From Bacillota bacterium (GTDB lineage: Bacteria; Bacillota_I; Bacilli_A; Acholeplasmatales; Acholeplasmataceae), in assembly GCA_018818645.1 (NCBI GenBank), contig JAHIRQ010000171.1:4778-68777 (forward strand): a DNA stretch of 64,000 bases, read 5' to 3'. Under the pieces are notes generated by a model. It did not search any database. It saw only the letters and a program-made list of their open reading frames with translations, and had not been told where the DNA came from. Positions 48,432 through 64,000 of the stretch are shown here, in pieces (within the stretch, counting starts at the first letter, position 1; each line of letters starts with the position of its first letter). The translations under genes were made by a program, and so were the position numbers.

Positions 48432-48450
48432 AGATATAATCAAATATAAA

Positions 48451-48667
48451 ATCGTTGATGGGAAGTAGTACTTAAGGTTAACCCTGTTTTAGAGAGCGTA
48501 GGATGGTGAAATCTATGCCAGGAACTTTAACGAATTCATCCCAAAGAGATGCTAATCACATCCGTCTTGCCTGCGTTAAGGGTTTTGAGGGCTAGAAATA
48601 TTCTAGAACTAAGGTGGTACCGCGTAAACTTACGTCCTTAGCATTTGTTAAGGACTTTTATTTTTTT
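48451..48667 (+). promoter_or_regulatory. T-box riboswitch leader (Phe) controlling pheST
   Basis: Stem I GA motif (TTGATGGGAAGTAGTA), AGAGAG box, candidate UUC specifier at 48535-48537 followed by A, T-box sequence AAGGTGGTACCGCG at 48611-48624, and terminator GTCCTTA...TAAGGAC plus T-run at 48634-48667. A TATAAT lies at 48435-48440. Confidence 0.8.
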
Positions 48668-55890: not shown

Positions 55891-57564
55891 ATGGCGAATC
55901 AAACAGTCAGTGGAACTCTATTTAAGAAAATGGTAACTAACGGAGCAGTAAACTTAAAAAACAATCACAAAGAAATTGATCATTTGAACGTTTTCCCAGT
56001 ACCCGATGGAGACACCGGTACGAATATGCAAATGACAATGATGGCAGGCATTAAAGAAGTAAACAGTTTGGATTCACAATCAATAGTTGATATTTCAAAA
56101 ATCTTATCACGTGGACTACTAATGGGAGCAAGAGGTAACTCTGGAGTTATACTTTCCCAATTTTTCCGTGGAGTTTATTCAGAAATAGCAAAAATTGATA
56201 ATGGATCAGCAACAGTTCAAGAATTCATCCAAGCATTAGTTGGTGGATATCAAATGGCATATCGTGCTGTCATGGATCCTGTTGAAGGAACTATCCTTAC
56301 TGTTGTTAGAGAATCTGCTGAAAAAGTACTCCGTGAATCATCCAGTCTAAATAGTGTTGAAGAAGTATTAAAATTATATTTAGAACAAGCAAAAGAAACT
56401 TTAATCAAAACCCCAGATTTACTTCCAGTATTAAAAGAAGCTGGAGTCGTAGATAGTGGTGGTGCTGGTTTCATTAAAATTATCGAAGGCTGGGTCATGG
56501 CATTAGAAGGTCAGATGCTTAATGAATCTGAAGCTTCATTTACACCATCTAAGAAAGAACATTATCATGGTGCTGAAAATTTAGGTGCTGTTGATATTAA
56601 GTTTGGATTCTGTACAGAATTTATTGTCAAACTACATAAACCTGAAAAGTTCAACGAAAACTTTATGAAAGACCCACTTTCACAAATGGGCGATTCACTT
56701 GTTGTAGTGACTGATGATGATTTACTGAAGGTCCATGTCCATACCAATCAACCAGGTGTTGCATTAACACTTGCTCAAAAGTATGGAGATTTACAAACGA
56801 TTAAAATTGAAAACATGAGAATTCAACATTCAAACATCATGGAAAATGCAGATACACCATTACACCAAGAAGAAAACCAACTGAAGATGCCTAAGAAGCC
56901 AAAAGCTAAATTTGGTATCATTGCAGTTGCTTCTGGAACTGGTATTCAAGATGCATTTAAAGAATTAGGCGTTGATTTGATTATTGATGGTGGTCAAACG
57001 ATGAATCCATCAACAGAATCATTTGTAAAAGCAATTGAATCCTTAAATTGTGAACATATCATTATCTTACCAAATAACAAAAATATCATTTTATCAGCAG
57101 AACAAACATTAGACTTATGTCCTGATCGTTCCATTAGAGTCCTAAAGACAAAGAGTATCGCTCAAGGATATTCATCACTCATGGCATTTGATCCTACACA
57201 AGAATTAGATGAAAACTTTGAATCGATGACAGAGATAGTATCCAACATGCGTTCAGGTGAAGTGACTTATGCAGTTAGAGATACAGAATTGAATGGAGTT
57301 TCCATTAAAAATGGTGATTTCATAGGGATCACTAAAGGTGAAATCAAGCTATCCACCCCTTCTAGATTAGATACTGCACTAGGATTACTTAATGATATGG
57401 TTGATATGGATCGTGAAATTATAACGATTTTCTATGGTAACGATGCAGATGAAGATGAGCTCGATAATATTGTTGCTCATGCTAAGAAATTAAACCCAGA
57501 CATTGAAGTAGAAACGATCGAAGGTAAGCAAGACATTTACACCTATATCTTCGCTGTCGAATAA
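55891..57564 (+). CDS. DAK2 (DhaL-like) domain protein, YloV family
   Basis: FPVPDGDTGTNM DhaL motif plus a C-terminal DegV-like/YloV extension. Conserved divergent arrangement with rpmB. Confidence 0.85.
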   Translation: MANQTVSGTLFKKMVTNGAVNLKNNHKEIDHLNVFPVPDGDTGTNMQMTMMAGIKEVNSLDSQSIVDISKILSRGLLMGARGNSGVILSQFFRGVYSEIAKIDNGSATVQEFIQALVGGYQMAYRAVMDPVEGTILTVVRESAEKVLRESSSLNSVEEVLKLYLEQAKETLIKTPDLLPVLKEAGVVDSGGAGFIKIIEGWVMALEGQMLNESEASFTPSKKEHYHGAENLGAVDIKFGFCTEFIVKLHKPEKFNENFMKDPLSQMGDSLVVVTDDDLLKVHVHTNQPGVALTLAQKYGDLQTIKIENMRIQHSNIMENADTPLHQEENQLKMPKKPKAKFGIIAVASGTGIQDAFKELGVDLIIDGGQTMNPSTESFVKAIESLNCEHIIILPNNKNIILSAEQTLDLCPDRSIRVLKTKSIAQGYSSLMAFDPTQELDENFESMTEIVSNMRSGEVTYAVRDTELNGVSIKNGDFIGITKGEIKLSTPSRLDTALGLLNDMVDMDREIITIFYGNDADEDELDNIVAHAKKLNPDIEVETIEGKQDIYTYIFAVE

Positions 57565-57578
57565 GAAAAAACTCTCTT

Positions 57579-57602
57579 AAAAAGGTGCTTGCACCTTTTT
57601 TA
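57579..57602 (+). terminator. Rho-independent terminator
   Basis: AAAAGGTGC tt GCACCTTTT plus T-run. Confidence 0.7.
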
Positions 57603-57605
57603 ATG

Positions 57606-57693
57606 GCGGACGTGGTGGAATGGTAGACACGCATGTTTGAGGGGCATGTGGCCGCGTTAGGCCGTGTGAGTTCAAATCTCATCGTCCGCACCA
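57606..57693 (+). tRNA. tRNA-Leu (anticodon GAG), class II with a long variable arm, encoded CCA
   Basis: Acceptor GCGGACG/CGTCCGC. Anticodon stem CATGT/GCATG with loop TTGAGGG. T-arm GTGAG-TTCAAAT-CTCAT. 3' ACCA. Confidence 0.9.
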
Positions 57694-57901
57694 AAGTTAT
57701 CTTTGATTACTCCCCGAAACCAGGGGATAATAGCGATATTTTAATGAAAAGCGACCTTATTTCTTTTGAAATAGGGTCATTTTCGTTTATCGAGTCATAC
57801 CGAGAGCAAATTTGCTTTCTCGGAAGTGACATGTTTAATTTGGGGGTAATGTGGTTCCGAACTAACCTAAACGTCAAATATTAACACTGTATCAAAAGAA
57901 A

Positions 57902-57940
57902 ACCACTTAGAGAATAGATTGCTCTAGGTGGTGTTTTTGT
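57902..57940 (+). terminator. Terminator-like hairpin in the tRNA-proximal spacer
   Basis: ACCACTTAGAG ... CTCTAGGTGGT stem (one G:T pair) followed by GTTTTTGT. Confidence 0.4.
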
Positions 57941-58053
57941 ATATGGAGTTTAAATCTCACCTGGTGGAAAATGGCGGATTTTATGTGTTTCTAAGCGACT
58001 TATCAAGTTATGATGAGTAAGGAAGTAGATCTTTGATATCCTTTGTTTGAATA

Positions 58054-58170
58054 TTGTCTATTGTCGATAATAGGTTTTCTGATTTAAAAACACGAGTCGC
58101 AATCCTAGAAAGTGATGTTAAAAACTTATTCAAAAGACATAATCCAGCAAAGGAGACCAGGAACATATGA
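58054..58170 (+). CDS. Small coiled-coil ORF (38 aa, TTG start), possibly a remnant of a phage lysis-module protein (XhlA-like pattern)
   Basis: Hand translation gives SIVDNRFSDLKTRVAILESDVKNLFKRHNPAKETRNI. The stop overlaps the holin ATG (ATATGA). The ORF is open only from 58051. Not in the ORF track. Confidence 0.3.
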   Translation: MSIVDNRFSDLKTRVAILESDVKNLFKRHNPAKETRNI

Positions 58171-58543
58171 ACGAAATAGTTACATCAATTATCGGAATTA
58201 TTGTTACTACAGTGGTCTTACCACTAGTTACACTTGGTGGGACAAAACTTATTCACTACCTCAATAGTAAGATTAAAGATGAATACGCAAGAAGAATATT
58301 GACATCAATAACATCAAGCGTAGAACGTGCTGTAAGGGTTGTTTTTCAGACCTATGTAGAGTCTTTAAAGAAGAGTGGAACATTCGATAAGGAAGCACAG
58401 AAAACCGCTCTAATCCTTGCCAAGAGGTTACAAAAGAACTTAATATAGAAGCAAAAGAGTTTATAGTTAACAACTATGTTGATTTGAATGCATATATTAT
58501 TAATCAAATAGAGGCAACAATAAGCCAGATAAAGAGCAAATAA
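58167..58543 (+). pseudogene. Phage holin, LL-H-like family, interrupted by a frameshift near 58431-58436
   Basis: The N-terminal TM (IIGIIVTTVVLPLVTLGGTKLIHYL) and AVRVVFQTYVESLKKSGTFDKEAQK match the LL-H holin pattern. The frame stops at 58448, but a shifted frame continues as ELNIEAKEFIVNNYVDLNAYIINQIEATISQIKSK to the TAA at 58541-58543. Confidence 0.55.
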
Positions 58544-58739
58544 AAAAAACGGACTAATTATTGAACCTGTCCGTTTAGCCATTATTTTTTTTAGACTGGA
58601 ATAGAATAAGAAGTTTTATCATTTTATAAAAGTTTTGTCATTTGAAGTTTATTTAAGATTCCATCAGATGTTCTAAACACTTCATTTTTTTCTATACCTA
58701 TAATCAATACTGTTGTTATTCATAACAATTTAATCTAGA

Positions 58740-60674
58740 TTAATTTGATTCCTTGTATGCTTGATAAAGTTTTGAATAGAACCCTTCAGTTTTAATCAAA
58801 TCATCATGAGATCCCTGTTCCATTAGTATACCTTCATTTAGAACCAAAAGTTCATCTGACATATATTTTGTAATATTTAGTTTATGAGAAATTATTATAC
58901 CATTTGAAGAATGTAAGTATTTTTTCATTGATTCAAGACAAGTTTTTTCTAAATATGCATCCACACTAGTCAAAGGTTCATCCAGTATGAAAGGGAACTC
59001 ACTTTCTGGTAACAAAAATCTACATAGTGCAATACGATTCTTCTCTCCACCAGATATTTTATCACCTCTTTGTCCGAGATTTCGATTATTCAATTCAACT
59101 AATTTAAAATCCGATACTAAATTATTATACTTCTCAATTAAAAAATATTCTCTCGAGATAATAAGCTTACTCATATGAAAAGCAAGCGCTTTAGTGTCGA
59201 CTTCAATGAAAAAATTAGAGATTTTCTCATATAAATTATACTTAATGAACTCAGATGGTTCTACATTGTAAATTTTTCCTAGTATCGTTAGTTCTGTATT
59301 ATTGATGTTTGAATATAGTTTGTTTGCTATTTTATTGAAAATTATTAAAAGCTCAATACTAAGAGATTCTATCAAATCCTCATAAACGCTATGTGAGACT
59401 GGTTTTTTACCCAAGGTTATGTTGAAATCTAAATTTGCATCAAATATTTCTTGTTCTTGCCCATAATACCTGATAGATGAAAATACTAAAGGTCGTGGTA
59501 TATTAGTTAAGTCAATAGTCCCCAACTTAACAAAACCAGTTTCAGGCACATTTTCACCAAGAAATAACTTGATTATTGAAGATTTTCCTTCGCCAGATAA
59601 TCCAACCAAACCGTATTTTTTGTTTAGAGATAAAGAAAAATTCTTGATTAAGTCCTTTTTAGTATGAGAAATCGTGCAGTTTGAGACTTCAAACGTATGG
59701 TTAATTGGTAAACAATGTTTTGGGTGAATATCAAGTGATTCATCTATTCTATTTTTAAAAACATTAAAGGCTTTAATATTTTCTAATAGTTCCTGAATTG
59801 ATGATAGTGGTATAAAAACTATTTGGAAATACATTAATAGAGCTAGAAATTCTGAGATAAGCAGTGATCCATTGTTGATTTCAATTACTGCAACCAAAAA
59901 GAAAATTGTGATTGCAAAACTCTTAATTGCAGTAATAGAATTTTTCCCAATAGCACTATAAGCAAACGCTTTTTTAAAAAAACCATCTCTATTATACAGT
60001 CGTTTCCTAATATTTGTCTCATGTTCTTGCACGCTAGAATAACCCATTATTGAACGACGATTCTCTATATATTCTAATACTTTTGGATTAACCTCATAAA
60101 CTACTTCACGTGCATGATTAAAATTCTTCTCGTATTTTTTATTGGTTATATGAATAATCGCAAAAATAACAATATACGACACAATTACAATTACACCGAA
60201 AGTCATTGTCCATTTTAAAGATATAATAAGTGTAGCAATTGCGGCTAATGAGATAAATATAGTATTAAAGTAATTAATAGACATGATTGTTGCTAATTGC
60301 TCAGTATCTCCAAACATACTGACCATAAAAGCACCAGATCCTCTTGATTTAAGAATACTGGAGTCTTTCTTTGAAATTGATGATAATAGTTCGTCCTCTA
60401 ATATCCTCTTTGTATTCATAAAATAAGAATTAGATATTATAGAAATTATAACTGTCAAAGCCACAAACAAAACCGCAAGTATAAAGTAATATAGGATATA
60501 TACATTATTCAATGTTAATATATTATCTATTAGATTTTTTTGTAGTAAAGGCAAAGCAAAAGAAATGACACTTAAAATAAGGCTAATTAGCGAAATAACA
60601 ATCAGTGAAAGTCGAGTTTTGTGATTTAGTTTTGATTTAACAAATGTAAAAAATTGTAGTAGTTTTTTTGTCAT
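58740..60674 (-). CDS. Fused TMD-NBD ABC exporter (no peptidase domain) with an enlarged helical subdomain in the NBD
   Basis: Six N-terminal TM helices. Walker A GLSGEGKSS, Q-loop YYGQEQ, signature ISGGEKNR, Walker B FILDEP. ATGA overlap with the upstream radical SAM gene. Confidence 0.8.
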   Translation of the reverse strand: MTKKLLQFFTFVKSKLNHKTRLSLIVISLISLILSVISFALPLLQKNLIDNILTLNNVYILYYFILAVLFVALTVIISIISNSYFMNTKRILEDELLSSISKKDSSILKSRGSGAFMVSMFGDTEQLATIMSINYFNTIFISLAAIATLIISLKWTMTFGVIVIVSYIVIFAIIHITNKKYEKNFNHAREVVYEVNPKVLEYIENRRSIMGYSSVQEHETNIRKRLYNRDGFFKKAFAYSAIGKNSITAIKSFAITIFFLVAVIEINNGSLLISEFLALLMYFQIVFIPLSSIQELLENIKAFNVFKNRIDESLDIHPKHCLPINHTFEVSNCTISHTKKDLIKNFSLSLNKKYGLVGLSGEGKSSIIKLFLGENVPETGFVKLGTIDLTNIPRPLVFSSIRYYGQEQEIFDANLDFNITLGKKPVSHSVYEDLIESLSIELLIIFNKIANKLYSNINNTELTILGKIYNVEPSEFIKYNLYEKISNFFIEVDTKALAFHMSKLIISREYFLIEKYNNLVSDFKLVELNNRNLGQRGDKISGGEKNRIALCRFLLPESEFPFILDEPLTSVDAYLEKTCLESMKKYLHSSNGIIISHKLNITKYMSDELLVLNEGILMEQGSHDDLIKTEGFYSKLYQAYKESN

Positions 60675-61954
60675 AATGTTTTATACGACTCCTCACCAAC
60701 ACAAAGAATTTTCGCAATAGTATTTTCGTTTAGATTTGCACATAACGCTAAAGATAATTCTGTCATTTTTTGTGAGTACATGCACCAATACTGGTTTTTT
60801 TCAACTGTATTTTCACTTAACATTATATCATTATATTTACATCCATGTGAGCAAGTATATCTATTCCAGCAAGATTTGCATTTGTTGGAGTATTCAGACT
60901 CTTTTACGACACGCACTGTGTGAAAAACATTACCGATTTTTGATTCTTCGATTGAAGAAAATCTATGACATGGGTACACATCTCCATGTATATCAACAGA
61001 AAATGTTGATTCACCAATTCCGCAACCAAAAGAACTGTTAATCTTTGGAATGAACAAACGACGAATATGTTCAATAAAAAGTCCAAAGGGAAAATCCTCA
61101 TGATCAATAGAATACTCTAAAACAAACAAGTATAAGTAATCTAACTGTTTTAATACTTTGTCAAAATTAACATTACTAATAGGATTAAGTATATCAGGTG
61201 GAATATTAACTTCTTTAAACCCTAAATTTAACAAGTCTTTATATAAAGTTACTAGTGAGTAGTTAAAATCGGTATAAGTTCCTCTTGCATGGACATTAGG
61301 TATATTCTCTAACAAATATGATAAATTAGATTTTATAGCATCATAAGAACTTTTTCCAGACGCCATTGGTCTTTGAGTATCTTGAATGGATTTTCCTCCA
61401 TCGATACTTACAGCCACACCAAAATCGTTTTCTTTAAAAAAATCTATAACATTTTTTTTAAAGAGGGTACCATTAGTAACAATGTGAAATTTGAACTTTT
61501 TTCTTGAATATGTTGCCTTCACATATGAACAAACTTTTTCTATTATATCGTATGACAGCATAGGTTCTCCACCGAAGAAAATAATATATGCATCACAATT
61601 TTCAGGAACCTGTTCCATATAAAAATCAATTGATTTCTTAGCAGTATCGATATCCATTAAACCTTTGCTTTTTCCATAATCTCCTTGATGAGCAAAACAA
61701 TAAGAACATCTAAGGTTACATGTATTAGCGACACATAAAAATAAACCATATCTATAGTTTTTTGGATTTGTTAGTTCATAGAAATCTTCTTCATTTGAAA
61801 CTTGTTTATACTTCACTAAGAGAGATTCCATTGCTTTGGAGTCAATATTAGTTTTGAATATATTGTATTCGTCTGCGGGAATCAAAAACAACTGTTTAAT
61901 GTCAGTAATGTATAAGTAGTAATCTTTTGAATTTTGAAAAACGTGGTATTCCAT
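60671..61954 (-). CDS. Radical SAM / SPASM-domain peptide-modifying enzyme with an N-terminal RRE-like pre-domain
   Basis: CNLRCSYC (CX3CX2C), GGEPML, and a C-terminal Cys-rich region (FGCGIG, VYPCH, CKSCWNRYTCSHGC, YWC). AAGGAGGA RBS. Confidence 0.85.
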   Translation of the reverse strand: MEYHVFQNSKDYYLYITDIKQLFLIPADEYNIFKTNIDSKAMESLLVKYKQVSNEEDFYELTNPKNYRYGLFLCVANTCNLRCSYCFAHQGDYGKSKGLMDIDTAKKSIDFYMEQVPENCDAYIIFFGGEPMLSYDIIEKVCSYVKATYSRKKFKFHIVTNGTLFKKNVIDFFKENDFGVAVSIDGGKSIQDTQRPMASGKSSYDAIKSNLSYLLENIPNVHARGTYTDFNYSLVTLYKDLLNLGFKEVNIPPDILNPISNVNFDKVLKQLDYLYLFVLEYSIDHEDFPFGLFIEHIRRLFIPKINSSFGCGIGESTFSVDIHGDVYPCHRFSSIEESKIGNVFHTVRVVKESEYSNKCKSCWNRYTCSHGCKYNDIMLSENTVEKNQYWCMYSQKMTELSLALCANLNENTIAKILCVGEESYKTL

Positions 61955-61980
61955 TAACGTAAATCCTCCTTAAGAGTATT

Positions 61981-62009
61981 GGAAGAAAGAAACACAGTTT
62001 CTTTCTTCC
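61981..62009 (-). other. Perfect 13-bp stem / 3-nt loop hairpin between the precursor ORF and the maturase gene
   Basis: GGAAGAAAGAAAC aca GTTTCTTTCTTCC. No U-tract follows it on the coding (minus) strand. Confidence 0.7.
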
Positions 62010-62015
62010 GTATTT

Positions 62016-62138
62016 TTATGCTATTACCTTTGGCCAACTATCAGCAGATCCACAACCAGCATAATTACATGCCAAAACTAGCTGATTATCTCTCACAGCT
62101 GACTTAAACTTTTGCAACAATAAAGGTATTCCCTTCAT
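62016..62138 (-). CDS. 40-aa candidate RiPP precursor peptide (MKGIPLLLQKFKSAVRDNQLVLACNYAGCGSADSWPKVIA)
   Basis: Translated by hand from the minus strand. Strong SD (GGAAGGAGGGGAGAG, 62141-62155). Lies 61 nt upstream of the radical SAM gene. Absent from the ORF track, which lists nothing shorter than 60 aa. Confidence 0.6.
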   Translation of the reverse strand: MKGIPLLLQKFKSAVRDNQLVLACNYAGCGSADSWPKVIA

Positions 62139-62366
62139 GTCTCTCCCCTCCTTCCACTTGAATTATATGAAATAATAACAACACTACAGTTATCATTACC
62201 ATATTAATCTGTGTGAAACCCCCAAAACGTTATTTATATGATTTATTTTTATCACAAGAGTACAAGATTGTCAATAAAAAACTTAAAATATATCTATTTA
62301 TTAATAAAAAAATATATCTGTTTGATTTGAATTTTATCCATTAATTTAATCAAATCTTAATCTATA

Positions 62367-62389
62367 AAGACCTCAACAGGTCTTTTTTT
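62367..62389 (+). terminator. Orphan plus-strand intrinsic terminator in a divergent intergenic region
   Basis: AAGACCT caac AGGTCTT stem plus T7. No plus-strand gene ends here. Confidence 0.4.
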
Positions 62390-62510
62390 AATATATCTAT
62401 CTGTATATTGTGTTGAGTGATATAATTAGTGTACATGGCGACGTAGAAGTTATTATTTTTTTGAATGAAAAAATGGTTTTTACTATTTTAATAAAAGGAG
62501 GGATAATTTT

Positions 62511-64000
62511 TTGAACAGTGACAACTCTGCAAAAGATGAACTATGTGAATTATCAAAAAGAGTAAAAGATAGGCTAGAAAAAAATAGATTCCCCTTTTTG
62601 CATATATTAGTACAAAATATAATGGACTTCCATTTTGTTAAAGTTTTCGCTGAAAAGGATAAGACAAGCTATCAAATACTTGAGAATGATATAACTTCTT
62701 ATCCTGCTATATTGTATTCAATGAAGGGATTAATAACTTATGGTCACGGATTACCTTTAGTTCACAGAGACAAACATTACCCAAAGACAGTTTTCGATTA
62801 TATATTTGAGTTTAACACTTCCAAAATGATAGATAGAATAATAGACATTTATAATGACGGTCAAATTGATATATTAAAAACAGATATTAACACATTTTTT
62901 TGCAAAAGAAAATATGATATTTTTTATGAAATATTTGATGTTTGGGATGCCTTAGAATATATAAAACCTGCTTTTGAAATACTAACACAAAGTCAATTAT
63001 TACTAGAACAAATGAGTATCGTTGTACATAAGTTTGATCAGCACTGGATCCAGTATTCACCAAATGATGATATAGATGAGTATTTCTTAGAACGAGCAAA
63101 CCAATATGTTGATTCATTTGATGAAACATCGTTTTTTAGTGATGATACCATTTTTGATGGAATTACATTTAAAGAAATAAAGGAAGTTCTAACAGTTATT
63201 GTTATGATGTGCTTTCGAAACATAAATTATGCCTATGTTTCTAAGCGAAAGTACCCTAATTTACATTTAGTTGATTTGCTACCACTTAGTGTACAAATAA
63301 TTACTTTGATTAAAAACATAAATTTAGCATTTGATATAGATGCTAATAAAGTGGATCAATTCATGCGAATATTATTAGTAGATTTGGCAGAGGATAATAA
63401 TTTTACTGAACCTTTGAAGTATCCAATTCTTCTTAAAGTCTCCGATGATTTTGTTTTGGTGACTGCTTCATCAATACTTACAAACCCTTTTCCCTCACTC
63501 TTTCAAATGCTTCAATCAAGATGCACTAAAGATTGGAGTAAAGCAATATTAATGCGTGAGAAAATATTTAGAGATAAACTATATGATATTTTTAACGATA
63601 CCCAATTTATGAAGATAAACCAACCAATAAAAATAAGTAAGAACACCATGATAATTACCGATATTGATGCATTAATTTTTGACAAAAAACATAAAGTGTT
63701 AGCACTGTTTCAATTGAAATGGAATGAAGAATTTAGCAACTCCATGAGAGCAAGAAAGAGCAAAATGAAGAACTATATAAACGAAGGAAATACATGGGTT
63801 GAGCGAGTAAGCGGTATAATAGACAATTCAAATGTAGAGTATTTGTCTAAAACATTTGGAATAAAAAAATCCGATTTACAACATTGCAGTAAGTATTTAT
63901 TTGTAATAGGAATGTATGCAAATGAATTTACAACTGATATTGAATATGATTCGAGAGCTTGTTGGCTAAGTTTTTCTAGAATTAAACTAATTAAGAAATT
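62511..64000 (+). CDS. Large orphan protein (over 496 aa, 3' end outside the window) with a C-terminal PD-(D/E)xK / NERD-like nuclease motif
   Basis: No stop codon was found by hand translation across 1490 nt, in AT-rich DNA. The TTG start lies 9 nt after GGAGG (62497-62501). An extended -10 (TGaTATAAT) is at 62418-62426. The motif is REKIFRDKL...ITDIDALIFDKKHKVLALFQLKW. The ORF is missing from the track because it has no in-window stop. Confidence 0.55.
   Translation, partial: MNSDNSAKDELCELSKRVKDRLEKNRFPFLHILVQNIMDFHFVKVFAEKDKTSYQILENDITSYPAILYSMKGLITYGHGLPLVHRDKHYPKTVFDYIFEFNTSKMIDRIIDIYNDGQIDILKTDINTFFCKRKYDIFYEIFDVWDALEYIKPAFEILTQSQLLLEQMSIVVHKFDQHWIQYSPNDDIDEYFLERANQYVDSFDETSFFSDDTIFDGITFKEIKEVLTVIVMMCFRNINYAYVSKRKYPNLHLVDLLPLSVQIITLIKNINLAFDIDANKVDQFMRILLVDLAEDNNFTEPLKYPILLKVSDDFVLVTASSILTNPFPSLFQMLQSRCTKDWSKAILMREKIFRDKLYDIFNDTQFMKINQPIKISKNTMIITDIDALIFDKKHKVLALFQLKWNEEFSNSMRARKSKMKNYINEGNTWVERVSGIIDNSNVEYLSKTFGIKKSDLQHCSKYLFVIGMYANEFTTDIEYDSRACWLSFSRIKLIKK

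What the first reader, a model, noticed from the sequence alone, without database searches (positions are those of the whole stretch)
58740..62138. Unannotated precursor / radical-SAM-SPASM / ABC-exporter cassette: candidate novel RiPP system
About 1 kb past tRNA-Leu, in clearly accessory DNA, three minus-strand genes are tightly packed.

- A 40-codon ORF (62138->62016) is invisible in the supplied ORF track. It has a very strong SD.
- 61 nt downstream is a 427-aa radical SAM enzyme. It has the CX3CX2C motif CNLRCSYC, a ~70-aa N-terminal pre-domain where RiPP recognition elements sit, and a C-terminal SPASM-type Cys cluster region.
- A 644-aa ABC exporter is translationally coupled to it (ATGA overlap at 60671-60674).

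This precursor-maturase-exporter layout is that of sactipeptide, ranthipeptide and streptide operons. The precursor does not resemble the families I can recall: it is not SCIFF-like, subtilosin/thuricin-like or streptide-like.

There is no sulfatase, and neither Cys sits in a C-x-P-x-R context (CNYAG, CGSAD). That argues against an anaerobic sulfatase maturase role for the enzyme. No protease, immunity gene or regulator is visible in the cassette.
Basis: partly seen in the sequence, partly recalled or inferred. Interest (0 to 1): 0.85.

Follow-up and report, generated by a model that had tools for sequence, protein, structure and literature searches.

The report
Uncharacterised radical-SAM peptide cassette on mobile island
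The 40-codon ORF is a real, conserved precursor peptide that a CteB/PapB-like radical-SAM enzyme probably cross-links before a dedicated ABC pump exports it; this natural-product family is genuine but so far undescribed, and here it rides a recently transferred island in a Mollicutes-type bacterium.

Summary
The short ORF is not chance. 32 distinct homologous peptides share an invariant C-terminal core, C-x-Y-x-G-C-G-x-x-D-[S/G]-W-P. All 11 independent family loci with upstream DNA encode one just upstream of an orthologous radical SAM/SPASM gene. About 155 loci of other rSAM/SPASM enzymes have none.

The maturase has CX3CX2C and the same 7-Cys SPASM ligand set as CteB/PapB/Tte1186, which leaves one open Fe site on auxiliary cluster 1. 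Its predicted N-terminus has the RRE fold. Its closest relatives are thioether (ranthipeptide) synthases: CteB scores 244 bits with TM 0.80, and PapB, SCIFF and QhpD models score 198-240 bits. The sulfatase maturase scores about 90-100 bits. No curated family cut-off is met, the peptides are all labelled hypothetical, and no paper was found.

The ABC partner is an equally discrete exporter lineage with a conserved ~90-aa helical insertion.

Best model: leader-guided Cys-to-Asp thioether formation at the near-invariant C-X3-D, possibly a second link from the first Cys, then export. The chemistry and biological role are inferred, not shown.

The cassette sits on an island starting exactly at the tRNA-Leu 3' end. 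The island is 99.9-100% identical in a strain whose core genes are only 74-81% identical.

The parts
62245..62274 (-). Promoter-like site (TTGACA, 18 nt spacer, AAAAAT) about 105 nt upstream of the precursor ATG
   Evidence: Consensus scan, 10 of 12 matches. The number of such sites in the region is no higher than in shuffled sequence, so this is only a candidate.
62147..62153 (-). Shine-Dalgarno AAGGAGG of the precursor gene, 8 nt before the ATG
   Evidence: Read directly from the sequence.
62070..62138 (-). Leader region of the precursor (residues 1-23, MKGIPLLLQKFKSAVRDNQLVLA). It carries the semi-conserved P-L-L-x3-(I/L/F)-K-x2-V-x-D recognition motif at a near-fixed distance (~18-19 residues where counted) from the first Cys.
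   Evidence: Alignment of 32 precursors.
62019..62069 (-). Core region of the precursor (residues 24-40, CNYAGCGSADSWPKVIA). The family motif is C-x-Y-x-G-C-G-x-x-D-[S/G]-W-P followed by a short variable tail. The stop codon is at 62016-62018.
   Evidence: Y, G, C2, G, D and P are invariant in 32/32 peptides. C1 and W are each present in 31/32. The C2-X3-D spacing holds in 31/32.
61980..62010 (-). Perfect 13-14 bp stem-loop directly after the precursor stop codon and before the maturase Shine-Dalgarno. Likely an attenuator or mRNA-stabilising hairpin that sets the precursor:enzyme ratio.
   Evidence: dG -20 kcal/mol, z -3.5. An equivalent hairpin with an unrelated sequence sits at the same position in 6 other loci. 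The function is inferred.
60671..61954 (-). Radical SAM/SPASM peptide maturase (427 aa). N-terminal RRE-like domain at residues ~3-58. CX3CX2C at C79/C83/C86. SPASM Cys: C311, C329, C372 (auxiliary cluster 1, three ligands) and C359, C362, C368, C391 (auxiliary cluster 2).
   Evidence: Cys mapping to CteB uses PMC10177961.
58740..60674 (-). Dedicated ABC half-transporter (644 aa, TMD-NBD, type IV exporter fold), translationally coupled to the maturase by an ATGA overlap. It has no C39 peptidase domain. The signature motif is SGGEKN.
59109..59393 (-). Lineage-specific ~90-aa all-helical insertion in the NBD helical subdomain (residues ~428-522), between the Q-loop and the signature motif.
   Evidence: Conserved in all cognate transporters. 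Modelled at pLDDT 85-96. The listed PDB exporter matches are mostly ~565-620 aa (PCAT1/HlyB chains ~700 aa with their extra N-terminal domain); absence of the insertion in them was not checked residue by residue.
58542..58576 (-). Terminator-like hairpin followed by U8, about 165 nt after the ABC stop codon.
   Evidence: Read from the sequence. The fold gives dG -11.3 and z -1.7, which is weak.
57606..57693 (+). tRNA-Leu(GAG). Its 3' end is the left boundary of the island that carries the cassette (57694 to beyond 64000).
   Evidence: Homology to the cassette-free relative ends exactly at 57693.

Best explanation
This is a three-gene operon for a ribosomally made, post-translationally modified peptide (RiPP).

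1. The 40-aa precursor has a ~23-aa leader and a 17-aa core.
2. The leader's P-L-L...K..V.D motif is bound by the N-terminal RRE domain of the radical SAM/SPASM maturase.
3. A core cysteine thiolate ligates the open iron site of auxiliary cluster 1.
4. The 5'-deoxyadenosyl radical abstracts a hydrogen from an acceptor residue, and a sulfur-to-carbon thioether ring is closed.
5. The most likely ring joins the invariant Cys29 to the beta-carbon of the invariant Asp33. This is a C-X3-D motif, as in PapA/PapB and QhpC/QhpD.
6. The nearly invariant Cys24 may form a second ring.
7. The modified peptide is then exported by the translationally coupled, family-specific ABC exporter.
8. A hairpin after the precursor gene keeps precursor mRNA in excess over enzyme mRNA.

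Shown here: the gene set, its conservation, the motifs, the cluster ligands, and the fold and family relationships. Inferred: the thioether chemistry and its site, the role of the hairpin, export as the ABC's role, how the leader is removed, and the peptide's biological activity (antimicrobial or signal).
For: Precursor conservation and position:
- 32 precursors share the core motif, and every family locus with upstream DNA has one. About 155 other rSAM/SPASM loci do not.
- C2, D and the C-X3-D spacing are invariant or 31/32. C1 is lost in one member, so C2 is the essential donor.

Maturase:
- The nearest relatives are all Cys-thioether synthases: CteB at E 2e-71 and 244 bits, with TM 0.80 over the full length including the RRE; PapB 240, SCIFF 210, QhpD 198 bits.
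- The 7 conserved SPASM Cys align one-to-one with CteB AC1 (3 Cys, open site) and AC2 (4 Cys). In Tte1186 and PapB the substrate Cys binds an auxiliary cluster, assigned to AC1 (PMC10177961).
- PapB links the Cys sulfur to the Asp beta-carbon in C-X3-D motifs (PMC9413430).

Export and secretion:
- The ABC partner is a discrete lineage that co-occurs with the maturase and has the exporter fold.
- Two relatives have double-glycine leaders, and one locus adds a C39-peptidase ABC and a HlyD-like protein. These are hallmarks of secreted peptides.

Operon design:
- A hairpin follows the precursor gene in all 7 loci examined.
Against: - No chemistry was measured.
- Full-length similarity is a poor predictor of rSAM-RiPP chemistry. 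StsB resembles MftC yet makes sactionines (PMC10288494).
- The enzyme fails every curated cut-off, including PapB (240 vs 340 bits).
- The invariant Tyr, Trp and Pro are unexplained by a simple Cys-Asp ring and could be the real reaction sites.
- One member has C-X4-D.
- No protease, immunity gene or regulator is present in the window cassette, so leader removal and function are open.
- In L172 the family ABC persists alongside a PCAT exporter, so its role might be immunity rather than export.
Confidence: 0.6

Rival explanations
1. The product is a sactipeptide. The same enzyme and precursor are involved, but the thioethers go to alpha-carbons, for example a nested hairpin in which Cys24 and Cys29 link to C-alpha of residues in the D-S/G-W-P segment.
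For: - Sactisynthases are polyphyletic and cannot be recognised by overall similarity (PMC10288494).
- Donor Cys lying N-terminal to the acceptors is the classic sactipeptide layout.
- Two Cys followed by 3-4 invariant downstream residues fits two nested rings.
Against: - Known sactisynthase models score far lower and align only to the rSAM core: RumMC 89, GggB 76, StsB 63 bits; SkfB 31 bits.
- The top four full-length matches include three characterised non-alpha thioether formers (PapB, SCIFF/CteB, QhpD); the fourth, the nif11-like maturase, has no known chemistry.
- An invariant Asp at +4 from the invariant Cys matches the PapB/QhpD rule.
Confidence: 0.17
2. The enzyme makes a crosslink that involves the invariant aromatic residues. 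This could be C-C or C-O (streptide, darobactin or cyclophane-like) or an S-aryl Cys-Trp or Cys-Tyr bond, which would be new chemistry for this clade.
For: - Tyr26 is invariant in 32/32 peptides, Trp35 in 31/32 (replaced once, by Tyr), and Pro36 in 32/32.
- A Cys-Asp ring alone does not explain that conservation.
- rSAM/SPASM enzymes do catalyse Trp and Tyr crosslinks (SuiB; the DarE, WprB and YhhB families appear).
Against: - Those enzyme families are distant: SuiB TM 0.53; DynA 95 and YhhB 92 bits, aligned to the core only.
- The Omega-X-X cyclophane rule does not fit: in Y-A-G the third residue is Gly, and the residue two positions after Trp is not conserved.
- The aromatic residues may be conserved for target binding.
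Confidence: 0.15
3. The cassette is not a secreted natural product. It is a cofactor or protein-maturation system (PQQ, mycofactocin, QhpC or anSME type), or a phage-defence rSAM.
For: - The QhpD model scores 198 bits.
- The cassette lies on a mobile island next to unknown genes.
Against: - No sulfatase, qhp, pqq or mft genes are present in any locus.
- anSME scores only 89-103 bits, and this family has seven conserved SPASM Cys rather than eight; as recalled from the anSME literature (not tested here), anSME's auxiliary cluster 1 has a fourth Cys ligand.
- PADLOC gives only generic viperin-core and NBD hits.
- The partner is an exporter-fold ABC, and double-glycine leaders with a C39 PCAT occur in relatives.
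Confidence: 0.04

Closest known systems
PapA/PapB (freyrasin) ranthipeptide system of Paenibacillus polymyxa
   Same: - rSAM/SPASM maturase with the same 3+4 auxiliary-cluster Cys set.
- The PapB HMM aligns over residues 71-379 at 240 bits.
- The core contains a C-X3-D motif, the unit that PapB cross-links from the Cys sulfur to the Asp beta-carbon (PMC9413430).
   Different: - The score is below the family cut-off (340 bits).
- There is one C-X3-D unit instead of six.
- The core has additional invariant Tyr, Gly, Trp and Pro, plus a second Cys with no matching Asp.
- The leader motif is different.
- A dedicated ABC with an insertion accompanies the maturase.
CteA/CteB and Tte1186a/Tte1186 (SCIFF / thermocellin ranthipeptides)
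   Same: - Closest solved structure: 5WGG/5WHY at 244 bits and TM 0.80, including the N-terminal RRE.
- Identical Cys ligand pattern, with an open AC1 site.
   Different: - The SCIFF maturase model scores 210 against a cut-off of 425.
- SCIFF precursors have six Cys in about 45 residues and link Cys to the Thr gamma-carbon. Here there are two Cys and no conserved Thr.
- As far as I recall, SCIFF loci usually lack a dedicated ABC. That point is from my own knowledge and was not tested here.
QhpC/QhpD (quinohemoprotein amine dehydrogenase gamma-subunit maturation)
   Same: QhpD forms intrapeptide Cys-Asp/Glu thioethers. Its HMM matches at 198 bits over the full length. The substrate also contains functionally important Cys, Asp and Trp.
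   Different: - No qhpA, qhpB or qhpG genes are present.
- The substrate is a 40-aa exported peptide, not an enzyme subunit.
- The score is far below the cut-off (453).
Nif11-like peptide radical SAM maturase family (TIGR04064)
   Same: - Best-scoring HMM at 241 bits, and the match includes part of the N-terminal domain (residues 27-252).
- Relatives P0146 and P0150 have long leaders ending in GG that are processed by C39 transporters, as Nif11-type precursors are.
   Different: - The score is less than half the cut-off (518.7).
- The window precursor has a minimal 23-aa leader with no Nif11 domain.
- No chemistry is known for TIGR04064. The only paper found that mentions it is the 2011 bioinformatic description.

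Membership tests
rSAM/SPASM-dependent RiPP (sacti-/ranthipeptide kind) | Radical SAM CX3CX2C cluster motif | tested here: met
   C79/C83/C86 are invariant in 28 family members. PF04055 scores 66 bits.
rSAM/SPASM-dependent RiPP (sacti-/ranthipeptide kind) | SPASM domain with 7 Cys: AC1 with three Cys ligands (open site for the substrate thiolate) and AC2 with four | tested here: met
   C311-x12-G-x4-C329, C359-x2-C362-x5-C368-x3-C372 and C391 are conserved. They align to CteB C344/C362/C413 and C400/C403/C409/C432. The Pfam SPASM HMM itself is sub-threshold.
rSAM/SPASM-dependent RiPP (sacti-/ranthipeptide kind) | N-terminal RiPP recognition element (PqqD-like beta3-alpha3) | tested here: met
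   The AF2 model (pLDDT 90.5) has strands at 3-8, 11-16 and 21-25, then helices at 27-35, 39-50 and 55-58. The full-length superposition on RRE-containing CteB gives TM 0.80. This rests on a predicted fold only: there is no PqqD Pfam hit.
rSAM/SPASM-dependent RiPP (sacti-/ranthipeptide kind) | Adjacent, co-oriented, Cys-containing short precursor gene conserved with the enzyme | tested here: met
   Found in 11 of 11 independent loci, giving 32 distinct peptides.
Ranthipeptide (non-alpha thioether) | Thioether from the Cys sulfur to a beta- or gamma-carbon of the acceptor | not testable with these tools
   Requires MS/MS, NMR or a desulfurisation experiment.
PapB family (NF047865) | HMM score at or above the curated cut-off (340 bits) | tested here: not met
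   239.6 bits. No family member scores better.
PapB family (NF047865) | Precursor with Cys-X3-Asp/Glu motifs | tested here: met
   A single C-G-x-x-D is present in 31 of 32 peptides, and C-X4-D in one. PapA has six such motifs (PMC9413430).
SCIFF system (TIGR03974 maturase) | HMM score at or above 425 bits, and a six-Cys-in-45 precursor | tested here: not met
   210 bits. The precursor has two Cys and gives no NCBIfam hit.
Anaerobic sulfatase maturase (TIGR03942) | HMM score at or above 349 bits, a sulfatase substrate with C/S-x-P-x-R, and a fully Cys-ligated AC1 | tested here: not met
   103.5 bits, and 89 bits to 4K36/4K37. No sulfatase gene is present in any locus. There is no CxPxR in the peptide. 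The family has seven conserved SPASM Cys, not eight.
QhpD (TIGR03906) | HMM score at or above 453 bits, and a qhpABC context | tested here: not met
   197.7 bits. No qhp genes are present in any locus.
Known sactisynthases (RumMC, GggB, StsB, SkfB) | Family HMM score at or above the cut-off | tested here: not met
   89 against 720, 76 against 650, and 63 against 625 bits. SkfB scores 31 bits.
Peptidase-containing ABC transporter (PCAT, bacteriocin exporter) | N-terminal C39 peptidase domain | tested here: not met
   The window ABC has only ABC_membrane and ABC_tran. A separate PCAT exists only in the L172/L173 locus.

The most novel reading that the evidence does not exclude
The invariant Tyr, Trp and Pro may be reaction partners rather than binding residues. 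In that case the family would define a new RiPP class with a crosslink type not yet seen from the CteB/PapB clade, for example a bicyclic scaffold that combines a Cys-Asp ranthionine with an S-aryl or C-C link to Trp or Tyr. It would be exported by an ABC whose novel helical NBD insertion takes part in substrate handling. It would also be the first such system in a Mollicutes-type (Mycoplasmatota) host, spreading on a tRNA-Leu island.
Probability: 0.2. Interest if true: 0.8.

Novelty: new variant of a known kind. Interest (0 to 1): 0.55.

Why it matters
The cassette is a compact, self-contained system: one 40-aa precursor, one enzyme and one pump. Its 13-residue core is extremely well defined, and neither enzyme nor peptide belongs to any curated family. 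That makes it an easy target for heterologous expression and for learning what determines acceptor choice in thioether-forming radical SAM enzymes.

The single natural C-X3-D unit, flanked by invariant aromatic residues, is a minimal natural counterpart to the engineered PapB substrates now used for peptide macrocyclisation.

The ABC lineage, with its helical NBD insertion, is a second uncharacterised element.

There is also an ecological point. The same island is 100% identical in two species whose core genes are about 20-25% diverged at the nucleotide level. That indicates recent horizontal spread, which is consistent with, but does not show, a selectable (antagonistic or signalling) function.

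Tried and rejected
Searches that found nothing:
- Megablast of 57500-64000 against the plasmid and phage collections gave no match.
- Rfam found only the tRNA and a T-box elsewhere in the window.
- Literature searches for the motif words (DSWP, DGWP, YAGCG and others), for the host genera together with ranthipeptide, and for TIGR04064 found nothing describing this family. The supplement of the 15,000-enzyme compendium is not held, so I could not check whether members such as the Caloranaerobacter protein are nodes in that network.

Searches limited by saturation:
- The genome and metagenome locus scans with the maturase profile were saturated by generic rSAM/SPASM hits such as Collinsella and Ruminococcus. 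They yielded only three true members, but those generic loci served as a negative control for the peptide motif.

Interpretations rejected:
- Anti-phage defence: PADLOC gives only generic hits.
- The divergent 543-aa gene and the holin-like ORF as conserved parts of the system: neither is present in other family loci.
- A triceptide (Omega-X-X cyclophane) reading of the core: the third residue after Tyr is Gly.

Weak evidence:
- The promoter scan is not above background.
- The operon terminator is weak.


Full report
**1. Observation.**

ORF listing and direct reading of the minus strand confirm every coordinate in the finding.

- A 40-codon ORF runs 62138->62016 and encodes MKGIPLLLQKFKSAVRDNQLVLACNYAGCGSADSWPKVIA. 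An AAGGAGG Shine-Dalgarno lies 8 nt upstream.
- A 61-nt spacer follows.
- A 427-aa ORF runs 61954->60671 and contains CNLRCSYC.
- A 644-aa ORF runs 60674->58740 and overlaps the previous ORF by ATGA.
- tRNA-Leu(GAG) lies at 57606-57693, 1046 nt from the ABC stop.
- GC drops from about 0.34 to about 0.29 after the tRNA.
- Pfam assigns Radical_SAM/Fer4_12 to the 427-aa protein and ABC_membrane + ABC_tran to the 644-aa protein. The 40-aa peptide matches nothing in Pfam or NCBIfam.

**2. Is the short ORF real?**

The maturase has a discrete family of about 35 homologs (34-54% identity over the full length, 260-532 bits). Below these the scores fall to about 200 bits for generic rSAM/SPASM proteins.

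I fetched contigs for these homologs and scanned all six frames. A short ORF with the C-terminal motif C-x-Y-x-G-C-G-x-x-D-[S/G]-W-P lies immediately upstream of the maturase, on the same strand, in every family locus that has upstream DNA. These are the window, L003/4, L005, L006/L086, L007, L166/7, L172/3, L174, L175, L176 and L177. The motif is absent from about 155 loci of other rSAM/SPASM enzymes fetched in the same session.

A profile of these peptides was searched exhaustively against 1.84 billion representative proteins. It returned about 27 true representatives and only two obvious false positives.

Across 32 distinct peptides:

| Feature | Conservation |
|---|---|
| Tyr, Gly, second Cys (C2), Gly, Asp, Pro | 32/32 |
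| First Cys (C1) | 31/32 (Pro in P0136) |
| Trp | 31/32 (Tyr in P0138) |
| C2-X3-D spacing | 31/32 (X4 in L176) |
| Tail after W-P | 1-24 residues, mode 4 |

Two sub-types are visible, Y-A-G-C-G-x-x-D-S-W-P and Y-E-G-C-G-x-x-D-G-W-P.

The leader carries a semi-conserved P-L-L-x3-(I/L/F)-K-x2-V-x-D motif at a near-fixed distance from C1 (18-19 residues in the members counted). In the shortest members, including the window's, the leader is little more than this motif.

All database names for these peptides are "hypothetical protein". Gene callers missed the window's ORF on 2 of 4 contigs. The ORF is therefore a genuine, conserved gene.

**3. The maturase.**

The family alignment shows an invariant CX3CX2C (C79/C83/C86). 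It also shows the complete SPASM signature: C311-x12-G-x4-C329, then C359-x2-C362-x5-C368-x3-C372, then C391.

In the HMM alignment to CteB these Cys correspond one-to-one to CteB ligands:

| Cluster | CteB | This family |
|---|---|---|
| AC1 (three Cys, open Fe site) | C344, C362, C413 | C311, C329, C372 |
| AC2 (four Cys) | C400, C403, C409, C432 | C359, C362, C368, C391 |

This is the ligand set shared by CteB, PapB and Tte1186. In those enzymes selenium EXAFS shows the substrate (seleno)cysteine binding an auxiliary cluster, assigned to AC1 (PMC10177961). No eighth conserved Cys exists. By my recollection of the anSME literature, which was not tested here, anSME has one.

An AlphaFold2 model built on the family alignment is confident (pLDDT 90.5, pTM 0.90). 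It shows an N-terminal three-strand, three-helix module at residues 3-58, which is the RRE topology.

Foldseek against the PDB ranks CteB first (TM 0.80, 438 aligned columns, so the N-terminal domain is included). Then come anSME (0.66), TigE, ChlB and SuiB (0.53).

By sequence, CteB scores 244 bits against 89 for anSME.

NCBIfam ranks the families as follows:

| Model | Bits |
|---|---|
| nif11-type maturase | 241 |
| PapB | 240 |
| SCIFF maturase | 210 |
| QhpD | 198 |
| ScfB-related | 193 |
| CcpM | 156 |
| anSME | 103 |
| Sactisynthases | 63-89 |

None reaches its curated cut-off, and no other family member has a stronger best match (lowest E-value) than the window protein to the top models.

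The enzyme therefore belongs to the clade of leader-dependent Cys-thioether synthases but to no named family.

**4. The ABC protein.**

It follows the maturase in every complete locus except the most divergent one, L176.

Its homologs form a discrete set of about 20 proteins (334-502 bits). The next hit scores 118 bits. Several homologs lie on the very contigs that carry the maturases.

All share an insertion of about 90 residues between the Q-loop and an unusual SGGEKN signature. The model (pLDDT 87) renders the insertion as a confident helical bundle at residues ~428-522.

The overall fold is the type IV exporter fold. The best matches are Atm1, BmrCD, TmrAB, PCAT1 and McjD. Apart from the PCAT1 and HlyB chains (~700 aa, which carry an extra N-terminal domain), these are ~565-620 aa, shorter than the 644-aa query.

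There is no C39 peptidase domain.

**5. Secretion hallmarks in relatives.**

Two precursors carry canonical double-glycine leaders in front of the family leader: P0146 (...EDLSKVAGG) and P0150/L172 (...ELEAVNGG). The L172/L173 locus adds a C39-peptidase ABC transporter and a HlyD/AprE-like protein directly after the family ABC.

This supports a secreted product. It also raises a caveat: because the family ABC is kept alongside a PCAT, its role could be immunity rather than export.

**6. Operon signals.**

A perfect 13-14 bp hairpin (61980-62010, dG -20, z -3.5) sits between the precursor stop codon and the maturase Shine-Dalgarno. Six other loci have an equally strong hairpin at the same place. 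Their stems have unrelated sequences, and some are followed by U-tracts.

Hairpins like this are the usual way RiPP and bacteriocin operons keep precursor transcripts in excess. That function is an inference.

The promoter candidate at 62274-62245 and the terminator-like hairpin at 58576-58542 are weak.

**7. Mechanism.**

The best-supported model has five steps.

1. The RRE binds the leader.
2. The C2 thiolate ligates AC1.
3. 5'-dA* abstracts H from Asp C-beta.
4. A Cys29-Asp33 thioether closes a five-residue ring.
5. The ABC exports the product.

The link to Asp rests on three points.

- The C-X3-D arrangement is conserved in 31 of 32 peptides, and C2 and Asp themselves are invariant.
- PapB, the enzyme known to work on C-X3-D (PMC9413430), is one of the two best-scoring models (nif11 241, PapB 240 bits), and QhpD, which also forms Cys-Asp/Glu links, is fourth (198 bits).
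- The one member that lacks C1 retains C2-X3-D.

What C1, Tyr, Trp and Pro do is unexplained.

Caution is warranted because similarity does not reliably predict rSAM-RiPP chemistry (PMC10288494). I give about 0.9 to "genuine leader-dependent rSAM RiPP cassette", about 0.6 to "thioether product with C29 as donor", and about 0.5 to the specific Cys29-Asp33 beta-link.

**8. Context and host.**

The window's housekeeping proteins cluster at 90% identity or more with those of "Tenericutes bacterium HGW-Tenericutes-2", phylum Mycoplasmatota. The named relatives of the cassette are all Tissierellia (Bacillota): Ezakiella peruensis, Tepidimicrobium xylanilyticum, Caloranaerobacter azorensis, Sporanaerobacter, and a Tissierellia MAG.

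In HGW-Tenericutes-2 the synteny polC-pheST-rlmN-rsgA-rpe-thiN-rpmB-fakA is the same. Nucleotide homology to the window stops exactly at 57693, the 3' end of tRNA-Leu, and unrelated genes follow.

A second metagenomic strain (L168) has core genes only 74-81% identical to the window. Its island, from 57694 to the end of the window, is 99.9-100% identical.

The cassette is therefore cargo of a recently transferred island targeted to tRNA-Leu. The island also carries:

- a phage-type holin ORF (58167-58448, phrog_13712, E 1e-12);
- a divergent 543-aa gene with no recognisable family;
- beyond the window end in L168, a Big_2 protein and an Rce1/CPBP-like membrane protease, a type often linked to bacteriocin immunity (that link is from my own knowledge).

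**9. Novelty and score.**

The architecture (precursor, rSAM/SPASM maturase, ABC) is a known kind. This family fails all curated family thresholds. Its precursor has no model and no name. No paper in the searchable library mentions the motif. The ABC lineage has an undescribed insertion.

I could not inspect the supplementary networks of the large rSAM-RiPP surveys, so members may already exist there as anonymous nodes.

I rate it a new variant of a known kind, with interest 0.55. It is a clean, experimentally tractable, well-delimited new RiPP family with an open chemical question. It is also one of many uncharacterised rSAM-RiPP groups.

Noticed in passing
window 57694-64000 (island); L168, L180: The island carrying the cassette begins exactly at the 3' end of tRNA-Leu. 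It is 99.9-100% identical in a strain (L168) whose flanking core genes are only 74-81% identical to the window. A close relative of the host, HGW-Tenericutes-2, has unrelated genes at the same site. This indicates recent horizontal transfer of a tRNA-targeted element. No integrase is seen within the window.
   Followed up: partly
window 58167-58448 (+): A 93-aa ORF between the tRNA and the ABC gene matches a phage holin family (phrog_13712, E 1.3e-12; weak Pfam Phage_holin_6_1). This suggests the island is phage-derived or a prophage remnant.
   Followed up: partly
window 62511-64000 (+), continues beyond the window end (543 aa in L169 481-2112): A gene transcribed divergently from the cassette, with a TTG start and a strong Shine-Dalgarno, has no significant Pfam, PADLOC or PHROGs match. 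It is not found next to the cassette in other family loci.
   Followed up: partly
window 1-57600 (core genes); The host is a Mycoplasmatota (Tenericutes HGW-2-like) organism that reads with the standard code. All other named carriers of this RiPP family are Tissierellia, so the cassette probably crossed a phylum boundary.
   Followed up: partly
window 59109-59393 (-), ABC residues ~428-522: A helical insertion of about 90 aa in the NBD helical subdomain, together with an atypical SGGEKN signature. It is conserved across the whole cognate ABC lineage. The aligned PDB exporter cores are about 570-620 aa, too short to hold it. Its function is unknown.
   Followed up: partly
L007 4722-7849 (Sporanaerobacter sp. 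chromosome NZ_CP181252.1): The cassette appears decayed here. The precursor is intact, but the maturase is frameshifted and lacks its SPASM half, and the ABC gene is frameshifted.
   Followed up: partly
L166/L167 4270-6059 (Tepidimicrobium xylanilyticum): A second, different radical SAM gene (449 aa) with its own 41-48-aa upstream ORF lies divergently next to the family cassette. It is probably a second RiPP cluster.
   Followed up: no
L168 306-2884 (beyond the window end): Further along the island are a Big_2/Ig-domain protein with phage tail-like hits and an Rce1/CPBP-like membrane protease. CPBP proteins are often bacteriocin immunity factors, so this one could be the missing immunity gene.
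   Followed up: no
P0152 (83 aa, metagenomic): This peptide consists of three tandem copies of the family leader motif (SPLLPPFIKEV...RRI) without any core. It may be an assembly artefact or a decoy-like leader repeat.
   Followed up: no
window 48446-48642 (+): A T-box leader (108 bits) lies upstream of the pheS/pheT genes. This is ordinary and unrelated to the finding.
   Followed up: no
L003 261-1406 and 6603-7712: In this locus the cassette is flanked by a DDE transposase and an AbiH-like gene. L175 and L176 also have transposase or integrase genes nearby. The cassette is repeatedly associated with mobile DNA.
   Followed up: no
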